Shown here piece by piece: positions 40,756 to 43,637 of a DNA stretch of 64,000 nt; the stretch's first letter is position 1, and each line of letters begins with the position of its first letter. The stretch lies in NCBI RefSeq assembly GCF_003334405.1, contig NZ_QOWM01000004.1; one strand, given 5' to 3'. The position numbers were made by a program, and so were the translations under genes. The stretch is from Escherichia coli (GTDB lineage: Bacteria; Pseudomonadota; Gammaproteobacteria; Enterobacterales; Enterobacteriaceae). Under the pieces are notes generated by a model, which saw only the letters and a list, made by a program, of their open reading frames with translations, did not search any database and was not told the origin of the DNA.

Positions 40756-42264
<1,509 letters not shown>

Positions 42265-42359
42265 GGGACTTAGCCTGCGGCGGTTTTGTTTGGCTTCAGC
42301 AGCGGGTTGCGCTCCCTTAATGTGCCTCGCCATATAAATTGAATGGTGCAGGGAGCGCG

Positions 42360-42389
42360 CAGGGGGCGGCCAATCGCCGCCGCCCCCTG
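42360..42389. other. GC-rich perfect 11-bp-stem hairpin (cagggggcggc...gccgccccctg) in the putP-efeU intergenic region
   Basis: Read directly; nested within a second inverted repeat (ttgcgctccc 42307-42316 / gggagcgcgc 42351-42360). Confidence 0.4.
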
Positions 42390-42562
42390 CTGTCCCGGCC
42401 TTCGGGGAACGCTTCAGCGATTTTGACGCCACCAACACCCGAGCTGTTATTATGTTCCGGGCAAAAAGTTAGATTTGATAATCGCGGATGGACGAAATTG
42501 CTTGATACACCCGCTTATCAGTTTTACATGGAAGCTCTGATGCATTGAGTCTGGACAGTTTT

Positions 42563-42598
42563 GTCGGCTGGATACGGCGTTTACGCGGCATCCGGCAA
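42563..42598. repeat. REP element (gtcggctggatacggcgtttacgcggcatccggcaag)
   Basis: REP-consensus-like palindrome read from sequence. Confidence 0.55.
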
Positions 42599-42729
42599 GA
42601 ACACATGGTTCTTTGCAAACAATCCCATCTTTCTACCCTGGAATAATCGTTTATATCCCTTGGCATTACCTCTCTTTGTTTACATTCCAACATCATTTTA
42701 TAAACATTCCGCTTGTGTTTTTCTTTGCC

Positions 42730-42749
42730 GTAATGATAATCGCTATCAC
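42730..42749 (+). promoter_or_regulatory. Candidate Fur box upstream of efeU (gtaatgataatcgctatcac, about 15 of 19 matches to GATAATGATAATCATTATC)
   Basis: Read from sequence about 60 nt upstream of the efeU ATG. Confidence 0.55.
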
Positions 42750-42806
42750 TGCGATTTACTTTTCTTTGCATAGATTGACTCAGAAAAACGTTTAAGGGTG
42801 GGTGGC

Positions 42807-43637
42807 ATGTTTGTTCCGTTTCTCATTATGTTGCGCGAAGGACTTGAAGCCGCGCTGATTGTCAGTTTGATTGCCAGCTATCTTAAGCGTACCCAGCGAG
42901 GCCGATGGATTGGTGTGATGTGGATTGGCGTGTTGCTTGCCGCTGCGTTGTGCCTGGGCTTGGGTATCTTCATTAACGAAACCACCGGCGAATTTCCGCA
43001 AAAAGAACAGGAACTGTTTGAAGGTATCGTGGCGGTGATCGCCGTGGTGATCCTTACCTGGATGGTTTTCTGGATGCGCAAAGTGTCGCGCAACGTCAAA
43101 GTGCAACTGGAACAGGCAGTCGATAGCGCATTGCAGCGTGGAAATCATCATGGCTGGGCGCTGGTGATGATGGTCTTTTTTGCCGTTGCAAGGGAAGGGC
43201 TGGAGTCGGTCTTTTTCCTGCTGGCGGCATTTCAACAAGATGTCGGGATCTGGCCGCCGCTGGGTGCAATGCTCGGTCTTGCTACTGCCGTGGTGCTAGG
43301 CTTCCTGCTCTACTGGGGCGGTATTCGCCTCAATCTTGGTGCATTTTTTAAATGGACCAGCCTGTTTATTCTCTTCGTCGCCGCAGGGCTGGCAGCTGGT
43401 GCCATTCGCGCATTTCATGAAGCCGGATTGTGGAACCACTTTCAGGAAATCGCCTTCGATATGAGTGCGGTGCTCTCAACTCACTCGCTGTTTGGCACGC
43501 TGATGGAAGGGATTTTTGGCTATCAGGAAGCGCCGAGCGTCAGCGAAGTCGCCGTCTGGTTTATTTATCTCATCCCGGCGCTGGTGGCATTTGCTCTGCC
43601 ACCACGCGCAGGGGCGACAGCGTCTCGCTCCGCGTAA
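42807..43637 (+). CDS. efeU: Ferrous-iron permease (FTR1/OFeT family); the reading frame is intact here
   Basis: Track ORF 42798..43637 begins at GTG; ATG at 42807 gives 276 aa MFVPFLIMLREGLEAALIVSLIAS with two REGLE motifs and no frameshift. Confidence 0.9.
   Translation: MFVPFLIMLREGLEAALIVSLIASYLKRTQRGRWIGVMWIGVLLAAALCLGLGIFINETTGEFPQKEQELFEGIVAVIAVVILTWMVFWMRKVSRNVKVQLEQAVDSALQRGNHHGWALVMMVFFAVAREGLESVFFLLAAFQQDVGIWPPLGAMLGLATAVVLGFLLYWGGIRLNLGAFFKWTSLFILFVAAGLAAGAIRAFHEAGLWNHFQEIAFDMSAVLSTHSLFGTLMEGIFGYQEAPSVSEVAVWFIYLIPALVAFALPPRAGATASRSA

What the first reader, a model, noticed from the sequence alone, without database searches (positions are those of the whole stretch)
42300..42420. 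Nested GC-rich inverted repeats in the 540-bp putP-efeU intergenic region
Seen directly: a perfect 11-bp stem (cagggggcggc / gccgccccctg, 42360-42389) sits inside a second inverted repeat (ttgcgctccc 42307-42316 / gggagcgcgc 42351-42360), followed by cccggccttcgggg. It is not followed by a U-run, so it is not a simple terminator, and it differs from the canonical REP a little further on (42563-42598). It could be a structured 3' UTR of putP, a small-RNA gene or a protein-binding site.
Basis: seen in the sequence. Interest (0 to 1): 0.3.

Follow-up and report, generated by a model that had tools for sequence, protein, structure and literature searches.

The report
Truncated TRIP1/RRS repeat after putP
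The GC-rich hairpins after putP are real and evolutionarily conserved, but they are the already described TRIP1b repeat, an internally deleted, inverted copy of the E. coli "replication risk sequence" (RRS), so the finding is ordinary rather than new.

Summary
There is a perfect 12-bp stem (42359-42370 / 42379-42390) and a perfect 9-bp stem (42309-42317 / 42350-42358). They lie side by side and are not nested. No U-run follows.

This is a copy of a dispersed ~280-bp repeat, not a locus-specific RNA element. It is TRIP1b (Rudd 1999; Li et al. 2024): it starts 41 nt after the putP stop codon, is 146 bp long, and lacks ~125 internal bp. The full-length copies TRIP1a (aqpZ-lysO) and TRIP1c (dusC-yohP) are the RRS elements of Pham et al. 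2023/2024. In those, a G-quadruplex strand on the lagging-strand template causes post-replication gaps.

The window copy has lost the first G-run of that motif (3 mismatches), ~124 bp of the core, and the productive orientation. It is most likely an inactive relic that still folds and still provides homology for rearrangements.

Both hairpins are conserved with compensatory changes across Escherichia, Pseudocitrobacter and Klebsiella copies: 6 of 21 pairs, and 0 of 500 shuffles reach this.

Small additions: the undeleted ancestor survives at this locus in 945 of 5426 complete E. coli genomes; similar ~124-bp deletions occur at two other loci; and the deleted segment weakly resembles Rfam TwoAYGGAY.

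Novelty: already known. Interest: low.

The parts
42306..42451 (+). TRIP1b: the internally deleted copy of the TRIP1/RRS repeat (146 bp as defined by Rudd 1999 and Li et al. 2024)
   Evidence: GTTGCGCTCC starts 41 nt after the putP TAA, as published (PMC10888264). It is homologous to the full-length copies at both ends.
42284..42305 (+). Weakly conserved left extension of the repeat (GTTTTGTTTGGCTTCAGCAGCGG)
   Evidence: It is similar to the left flanks of other copies, for example Klebsiella TGTGGCTTCAGCG and the dusC copy GCTTCATCATC. The boundary is fuzzy.
42309..42358 (.). Hairpin H1: arms 42309-42317 and 42350-42358 (9 bp) around an AT-rich 32-nt loop
   Evidence: I12. It is conserved, with U-A to C-G covariation at the inner pairs.
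42359..42390 (.). Hairpin H2: a perfect 12-bp GC stem (42359-42370 / 42379-42390) with loop CAATCGCC
   Evidence: I3. Four of its 12 pairs show compensatory changes across copies, and 99.5% of cells are paired.
42389..42392 (.). Deletion junction (...CCCCCTGC | TGTCCC...): 124 nt of the family core are missing after 42390, with 2-nt GC microhomology
   Evidence: Comparison with the full-length alleles at the same locus, L009 and L002.
42377..42396 (-). Remnant of the RRS G-quadruplex motif: GGGACAGCAGGGGGCGGCGG against the published GGGGGTGCAGGGGGCGGCGG
   Evidence: It is the only match in the window and has 3 mismatches. The exact motif is present in full-length copies. A pattern of two-G runs survives on the minus strand.
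42393..42407 (.). Small 3' hairpin (T/C)CCCG-GCCTT-CGGGG, retained from the family's 3' end
   Evidence: Alignments. It is part of the conserved structure.
42417..42437 (+). Conserved 3' block GCGATTTTGACGCCACCAACA. In full-length copies it forms the 3' half of the long closing stem, whose 5' partner is deleted here
   Evidence: It is invariant in the E. coli copies, was used for the genome scan, and pairs.

Best explanation
The feature is TRIP1b. It is one copy of the TRIP1 repeat family, whose full-length members TRIP1a (aqpZ-lysO) and TRIP1c (dusC-yohP) are the E. coli replication risk sequences (RRS).

Shown:
- It begins 41 nt after the putP stop codon.
- It keeps the family's 5' domain (hairpins H1 and H2) and its last ~60 nt.
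- It lacks 124-125 internal nt.
- The undeleted form still exists at this same locus in other E. coli strains.
- The deletion removes the first G-run of the published G-quadruplex motif.
- The copy is inverted relative to TRIP1a in the same replichore, so its G-rich strand is the leading-strand template.

From the literature: full-length RRS fold when they are single-stranded on the lagging-strand template, block the polymerase and leave RecA/SSB-coated gaps. Inverted RRS give no gaps in vivo. The two RRS could not both be deleted cleanly from the strains used.

Inferred:
- The window copy is a decayed, RRS-inactive relic. It probably arose by a slippage or microhomology deletion across the strongly folded 3' domain.
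- What it still does is passive. Its hairpins can form in single-stranded DNA.
- The same hairpins can probably also form at the 3' end of the putP transcript.
- It offers homology for rearrangements with other TRIP1 copies.
For: - Repeat family: a median of 3 places per genome in all 5426 complete E. coli genomes.
- Alignment to the dusC, aqpZ, copA and putP full-length copies shows a clean internal gap.
- The start position is 41 nt after the stop codon, and 124 nt are deleted with GC microhomology. These match the published description of TRIP1b (PMC10888264).
- RRS identity of TRIP1a/c and the G4 sequence come from PMC11194060 and PMC10287960.
- The G4 motif is exact in full-length copies but has 3 mismatches in the window, on the minus strand. 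In MG1655 coordinates it lies on the plus strand at aqpZ-lysO, whereas putP is on the plus strand.
- Inverted RRS give no gaps in vivo, and both RRS cannot be cleanly deleted. That TRIP1b was still present in those strains is my inference from its presence in MG1655. Only two prominent RecA/SSB peaks were reported genome-wide.
- The full-length ancestor is at putP-efeU in 945 of 5426 genomes.
- Hairpin conservation.
- TRIP1a/1b and 1b/1c rearrangements are reported. A putP-flank/aqpZ-flank chimera was seen here (L021).
Against: - Inactivity is inferred, not measured. No paper read here reports zoomed ssGap-seq or RNA data for the putP copy.
- The deletion re-creates a G4-like run pattern (GGG-N6-GGGGG-C-GG-C-GG).
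- In vitro, the C-rich RRS strand on the lagging template still gave gaps in about two-thirds of encounters (preprint 10.64898/2026.06.16.732529). A weak replication effect therefore cannot be excluded.
- The short form is common: roughly 2600 of 5426 genomes by subtraction.
- Similar ~124-bp deletions occur at two other loci. That could mean the short form is tolerated or even favoured rather than merely decaying.
Confidence: 0.85

Rival explanations
1. The element acts at the RNA level as the structured 3' end of the putP mRNA. Transcription reads from putP into H1/H2, and the stable hairpins stall 3'-to-5' exonucleases or help form the 3' end, as REP elements do. This could coexist with the repeat identity.
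For: - The element starts 41 nt after the stop codon in the same orientation as putP, and no terminator-like site lies between them.
- The plus-strand RNA fold is very stable (-83.5 kcal/mol, z = -2.9).
- The putP-efeU allele that lacks TRIP1 and the REP carries a canonical hairpin-plus-T-run right after putP instead (L007). This suggests that 3'-end formation is solved differently in the two alleles.
Against: - No transcript data were available.
- TRIP1a sits downstream of the aqpZ terminator.
- At dusC, aqpZ-lysO and alx-sstT the repeat occurs in either orientation relative to the upstream gene, so the family is not defined by a 3'-UTR role.
- Wobble-pair asymmetry does not favour the plus strand: 6 on plus against 11 on minus.
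Confidence: 0.25
2. It is a weakened but still active replication-risk element. H1/H2 on the lagging-strand template, or the re-created G-run motif, still pause DNA polymerases and occasionally leave gaps.
For: - The single-stranded DNA fold is stable on both strands.
- A G4-like motif, GGGACAGCAGGGGGCGGCGG, is retained.
- In vitro, the RRS-C strand on the lagging template still triggers gaps.
Against: - In vivo, inverted full-length RRS gave no detectable gaps.
- Only two prominent peaks were reported in the genome.
- Both RRS could not be cleanly deleted, and I infer TRIP1b was still present in those K-12 strains. If so, it did not compensate.
- 124 nt of the core are missing.
Confidence: 0.1
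3. It is an independent small-RNA gene, or a specific protein-binding site, in the putP-efeU spacer.
For: Only the conserved secondary structure and the position in a long spacer.
Against: - No promoter-like site on either strand in 42100-42900.
- No Rfam family.
- The sequence is a deletion derivative of a repeat found at other loci.
- About a third of E. coli genomes lack it at this locus.
Confidence: 0.03

Closest known systems
TRIP1 intergenic repeats, specifically TRIP1b (Rudd 1999, Res Microbiol 150:653; Li et al. 2024, Genes 15:236, PMC10888264)
   Same: The locus is the same (41 bp after the putP stop codon). So are the length (146 bp), the ~125-bp internal deletion relative to TRIP1a, the GC content and the predicted hairpins.
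   Different: Nothing differs for the window copy. In addition, I find the undeleted form at the same locus in 945 of 5426 genomes. The sections of Li et al. read here describe TRIP1b only as the 146-bp form.
RRS, replication risk sequences (Pham et al. NAR 2023, PMC10287960; NAR 2024, PMC11194060; bioRxiv 10.64898/2026.06.16.732529)
   Same: It belongs to the same sequence family and shares the H2 hairpin, whose 3' arm is the complement of part of the G4-forming stretch. It also shares the 3' terminal block.
   Different: It lacks ~124 bp of the 222-bp core and the first G5 run of the motif. It is inverted with respect to replication and is not one of the two RecA/SSB peaks reported. It resembles an RRS in sequence but fails the features that define RRS activity.
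REP/BIME elements
   Same: Both are GC-rich intergenic palindromic repeats located after genes, and both can protect mRNA 3' ends.
   Different: The sequence is unrelated and the element is much longer. The copy number is 1-10 in E. coli rather than hundreds. The true REP in this spacer is at about 42563-42602.
Rfam RF01731 TwoAYGGAY RNA motif (Weinberg et al. 2010; proposed CsrA binder, PMC4333381)
   Same: Full-length TRIP1 copies carry, on the G-rich strand, two adjacent hairpins with loops CAUGGAUG and ACA(A/G)GGA(U/C)G inside a long closing stem. They align to the whole model at 25.9-30.6 bits. A diverged TRIP1-like neighbour in Pseudocitrobacter passes the threshold at 49.2 bits.
   Different: E. 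coli copies are below the gathering score of 43, and Klebsiella copies gave no hit. The segment concerned is exactly the part deleted in the window, so the window copy has no such module.

Membership tests
TRIP1 repeat (TRIP1b) | Sequence homology to TRIP1a/TRIP1c at both ends | tested here: met
   96.7% over the 60-nt 3' end and 75.8% over the 120-nt 5' part, against the dusC copy. Alignments.
TRIP1 repeat (TRIP1b) | [quoted passage not shown] | tested here: met
   GTTGCGCTCC starts at 42306, 41 nt after the TAA at 42262-42264. Published position.
TRIP1 repeat (TRIP1b) | Internal deletion of ~125 bp relative to the full-length element | tested here: met
   124 parent bases are missing relative to L009 and L002..
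RRS (functional replication risk sequence) | Complete 222-bp GC-rich core | tested here: not met
   124 nt of the core are absent.
RRS (functional replication risk sequence) | G-quadruplex motif GGGGGTGCAGGGGGCGGCGG | tested here: not met
   the best match has 3 mismatches (42377-42396, minus strand). The exact motif is present in 11 other loci. The authors found no additional site in K-12.
RRS (functional replication risk sequence) | [quoted passage not shown] | tested here: not met
   In MG1655 coordinates the TRIP1a G4 is on the plus strand (L033), while the TRIP1b remnant is on the minus strand (window equals MG1655 here). Both loci are assigned to the same replichore from textbook K-12 oriC and dif positions, not from a tool result. 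GC skew of the window is weakly positive.
RRS (functional replication risk sequence) | Triggers RecA/SSB-bound post-replication gaps | not testable with these tools
   The literature reports two prominent peaks only, at lysO and dusC. No data specific to putP were found.
Rho-independent terminator | GC-rich hairpin followed directly by a U-run | tested here: not met
   there is no terminator-like site in the element. H2 is followed by TGTCCCGGCC.
REP/BIME | Match to the REP consensus or its RNA model | tested here: not met
   the naRNA4/REP partial match is at 42566-42602 only, and nothing matches in 42306-42451.
TwoAYGGAY RNA (RF01731) | Two hairpins with AYGGAY loops scoring above the gathering threshold | tested here: not met
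   The window gives no hit, because the segment is deleted. Full-length copies score 25.9-30.6 bits against a threshold of 43.

The most novel reading that the evidence does not exclude
The TRIP1/RRS family may not only be a DNA-level replication obstacle. It may be, or derive from, a structured-RNA or mobile element related to the orphan TwoAYGGAY motif.

- Its G-strand 3' domain carries two CsrA-site-like hairpins.
- The fold is kept by many compensatory changes.
- Copy number ranges from 1-10 in E. coli to at least 13 in one Klebsiella pneumoniae chromosome.
- The element occurs in either orientation at the same intergenic loci.

On this reading, the short TRIP1b form is a recurrent derivative that has shed that module while keeping the 5' hairpins, and it may be tolerated or favoured.
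Probability: 0.1. Interest if true: 0.55.

Novelty: already known. Interest (0 to 1): 0.15.

Why it matters
For genome annotation, this stretch should be labelled TRIP1b, a partial RRS repeat, and not flagged as a candidate sRNA or riboregulator.

For the RRS field, the putP copy is a natural deletion and inversion variant:
- It keeps hairpins H1 and H2 and a G4-like remnant.
- It sits in the non-productive orientation.
- By inference, it did not rescue loss of both RRS.

The coexistence of full-length (945 genomes) and deleted alleles at one locus gives a natural comparison. It could be used to test which parts of the element are needed for gap formation. The orientation polymorphism at other TRIP1 loci adds further natural variants for that test.

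Tried and rejected
- Rfam at a permissive E-value over the spacer gave only chance-level miRNA/snoRNA hits and the REP.
- The promoter/terminator scan found nothing in the element.
- The phage collection gave no match.
- Every plasmid hit I inspected was a chromosome or chromosome fragment filed as a plasmid. They give no evidence of plasmid-borne mobility.
- The genome-contig scan used an exact 21-mer and was too strict. It returned only Escherichia species, Pseudocitrobacter faecalis and three short contigs that I take to be contaminants. The taxonomic spread therefore rests on Klebsiella hits from the plasmid collection and on the literature.
- I tried to define the insertion boundaries, target-site duplications or terminal inverted repeats from empty sites. 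This failed at four loci:
  - copA-ybaP: K-12 has ybaQ there.
  - alx-sstT: K-12 has an unrelated GC-rich repeat there.
  - dusC-yohP: every row shown spans about 590-611 bp, which is consistent with the element being present in one or the other orientation.
  - putP-efeU: the element-free allele differs over ~460 bp.
  A MITE-like origin is therefore neither supported nor excluded.
- The strand-of-folding test by wobble asymmetry was inconclusive. Over 67 shared pairs there are 11 cells that wobble on the minus strand and 6 on the plus strand.

Full report
**1. The observation**

The sequence shows a perfect 12-bp inverted repeat, GCAGGGGGCGGC (42359-42370) and GCCGCCCCCTGC (42379-42390), around an 8-nt loop. 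Immediately 5' of it is a perfect 9-bp inverted repeat, GCGCTCCCT (42309-42317) and AGGGAGCGC (42350-42358), around 32 AT-rich nucleotides.

The two hairpins abut and are not nested. CCCGGCCTTCGGGG follows, there is no T-run, and the terminator scan finds nothing in the element.

The region folds better than shuffled controls, both as RNA (-83.5 kcal/mol, z = -2.9) and as single-stranded DNA (z = -3.5 on the plus strand and -2.5 on the minus strand). Rfam has no family here. Its only meaningful hit in the spacer is the REP at 42566-42602.

**2. What it is**

A 176-nt query over the element matches every one of 5426 complete E. coli genomes, at a median of three places per genome. So this is a dispersed repeat.

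The other places are the dusC-yohP spacer, the aqpZ-lysO spacer and, in some strains, copA-ybaP and alx-sstT. Those copies are about 270-280 bp long. Aligned to them, the window copy has both ends but lacks an internal block.

The literature names this family. Rudd (1999) called it TRIP1, and Li et al. (2024, PMC10888264) surveyed it. [quoted passage not shown]

In the window, GTTGCGCTCC begins at 42306, exactly 41 nt after the TAA at 42262-42264. Compared with full-length alleles of the same locus, 124 nt are missing directly after 42390, with a 2-nt GC microhomology at the junction. The identification is therefore secure. TRIP1b spans 42306-42451, and a weakly conserved extension on the left reaches back to about 42284.

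**3. What the family does**

TRIP1a (aqpZ-lysO) and TRIP1c (dusC-yohP) are the 'replication risk sequences' of Pham, Cox, Goodman and colleagues (PMC10287960, PMC11194060).

- They are 222-bp GC-rich repeats about 650 kb either side of dif.
- Their G-rich strand contains GGGGGTGCAGGGGGCGGCGG and lies on the lagging-strand template.
- They block polymerases and leave RecA/SSB-coated post-replication gaps.
- Inverted RRS give no gaps in vivo, and the two RRS could not both be cleanly deleted.
- The authors mention the third, partial TRIP1 copy only in passing.

**4. How the window copy compares**

In my orientation the G4 strand is the minus strand. It overlaps the 3' arm of H2 and continues into ACCCCC, which is the first part of the deleted block.

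The exact motif is present in 11 of the loci I fetched. In the window the best match has three mismatches: GGGACAGCAGGGGGCGGCGG at 42377-42396 on the minus strand. This agrees with the authors' statement that K-12 has no further site. A two-G-run pattern does survive, because the deletion juxtaposes a GGG run.

The window is identical to MG1655 over 4.5 kb except for one base, so K-12 coordinates apply. There, the TRIP1a G4 is on the plus strand (L033), and the TRIP1b remnant is on the minus strand. I assign both loci to the same replichore from textbook K-12 map positions of oriC and dif, not from a tool result. The G-rich strand of TRIP1b is then the leading-strand template.

The copy thus fails three defining features of a functional RRS: a complete core, the G4 motif and the productive orientation. 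Only two prominent RecA/SSB peaks were reported genome-wide. The papers do not say whether TRIP1b was present in the deletion strains. Because MG1655 carries it, I infer that it was there and did not compensate for loss of both RRS.

My best explanation is that this is a decayed, RRS-inactive relic. That step is inferred, not measured. An in-vitro report that the C-rich strand on the lagging template still produces gaps in about two-thirds of encounters keeps a weak residual activity possible.

**5. Are the hairpins meaningful?**

Yes, at the level of the family. I aligned the 5' domain of 17 distinct copies from E. coli, E. albertii-group species, Pseudocitrobacter and Klebsiella.

- 97.7% of cells are paired.
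- 6 of 21 pairs show changes on both sides: G-C to A-U at the base of H2 in Klebsiella, G-C to A-U inside H2 in K. aerogenes, two C-G to A-U changes in the O157 dusC and E. whittamii copies, and U-A to C-G changes in H1.
- None of 500 shuffles reaches this, and sliding the partners abolishes it (the Escherichia-only set is).

Over the whole element in 19 full-length copies, 14 of 67 pairs shared by the two strand-specific consensus folds carry compensatory changes. Wobble asymmetry does not tell which strand folds (11 cells against 6), so RNA folding and single-stranded DNA folding cannot be separated here.

**6. Rival explanations**

A passive role as the structured 3' end of the putP mRNA is plausible. 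The element starts 41 nt after the stop codon, in the same orientation, with no terminator-like site between. The element-free allele has a canonical terminator instead (L007). It cannot be the family's defining role, because TRIP1a follows a terminator. The element also occurs in both orientations at dusC, aqpZ-lysO and alx-sstT.

An independent sRNA gene or a protein-binding site has no support.

**7. Things beyond the literature I read**

- The undeleted ancestor of TRIP1b is present at putP-efeU in 945 of 5426 complete genomes (examples are L002, L009 and L010). About 3562 genomes carry either form, and the rest have a different spacer (L007, and the O157 type with a 39-nt remnant).
- Deletions of about 123-124 nt with different junctions occur at alx-sstT (L014) and at aqpZ-lysO (L006). 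These junctions lie between C-runs, which suggests recurrent slippage across the folded 3' domain, or gene conversion.
- An 11-nt slippage between the direct repeats GCAGGGAGCGC and GCAGGGGGCGG recurs in three copies.
- The deleted block, read on the G strand, aligns to the whole Rfam TwoAYGGAY model at 25.9-30.6 bits, below the threshold of 43. A diverged, inverted TRIP1-like neighbour in Pseudocitrobacter passes it at 49.2 bits. TwoAYGGAY is an orphan motif proposed to bind CsrA. This is a lead, not a result.

**8. Verdict**

The identity is already known (TRIP1b, a partial RRS). Interest is low.

Noticed in passing
L009 505-783; L002 1040-1320; L010 (same locus as window 42306-42451): A full-length, undeleted TRIP1 sits at putP-efeU in 945 of 5426 complete E. 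coli genomes. The TRIP1b deletion is therefore polymorphic within the species. The sections of Li et al. 2024 that I read describe only the 146-bp form.
   Followed up: partly
L014 ~1073-1216 (alx-sstT); L006 2501-2640 (aqpZ-lysO segment on a record filed as a plasmid); window 42390/42391: Internal deletions of about 123-124 nt removing the same 3' sub-domain occur at three loci. There are two junction types: TGC|TGTCCC in the window, and C-run to C-run in L014 and L006. They could be independent slippage events or gene conversion.
   Followed up: partly
L010 ~545; L025; L006 (corresponds to window 42348-42369): An 11-nt deletion recurs between the adjacent direct repeats GCAGGGAGCGC and GCAGGGGGCGG. 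It removes the 3' arm of H1 ([D7], 36, 39, 47).
   Followed up: no
L034 577-847 vs L003 ~997-1268 (dusC-yohP); L016/L006 vs L004 (aqpZ-lysO); L014/L025 vs L024 (alx-sstT): At three intergenic loci the element occurs in opposite orientations relative to the same flanking genes in different lineages, and the immediate flanks diverge. RRS activity is reported to depend on orientation, so this is unexpected and unexplained.
   Followed up: partly
L003 1120-1259 (-); L004 1611-1750 (-); L013 1974-2114 (-) and 2218-2281 (+): The segment deleted in the window resembles Rfam TwoAYGGAY on the G-rich strand at 25.9-30.6 bits (threshold 43). An adjacent, diverged, inverted TRIP1-like element in Pseudocitrobacter faecalis passes the threshold at 49.2 bits. 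The hairpin loops CAUGGAUG and ACARGGAYG look to me like CsrA binding sites; that resemblance is from my own knowledge, not a test.
   Followed up: partly
CP125156.1 (L028) and other Klebsiella records: One Klebsiella pneumoniae chromosome filed as a plasmid shows 13 places for the element, at many different intergenic loci. The family is more abundant there than in E. coli. Several PLSDB 'plasmids' that carry it appear to be chromosome fragments.
   Followed up: partly
window 42563-42602: A single REP unit gives a partial naRNA4 match at 28 bits. It is absent, together with TRIP1b, from the short putP-efeU allele L007, which instead has a canonical hairpin-plus-T-run terminator after putP.
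   Followed up: partly
window 42807-43637: efeU is intact here (276 aa). The window otherwise equals MG1655 over 4.5 kb, apart from a single 1-nt indel. In MG1655 efeU is annotated as a pseudogene, and the indel presumably corresponds to that frameshift. The source is therefore K-12-like but not MG1655.
   Followed up: partly
L008 1084-1121 (O157:H7, upstream of efeU): O157:H7 keeps only a decayed 39-nt 3' remnant of TRIP1 upstream of efeU. The sequence toward putP is replaced by other DNA.
   Followed up: partly
window 42469-42771 (-): RefSeq annotation of some K-12-type genomes calls a 100-aa hypothetical protein on the minus strand, across the REP and the region upstream of efeU. It does not overlap TRIP1b, and I did not examine it.
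   Followed up: no
L027 ~2050-2260 (K-12 alx-sstT spacer): Where other strains carry TRIP1d, K-12 has a different GC-rich palindromic repeat: CTCCCTCTCCC...GGGAGAGGGTCGGGGTGAGGG...CCCTCACCC. I did not identify it.
   Followed up: no
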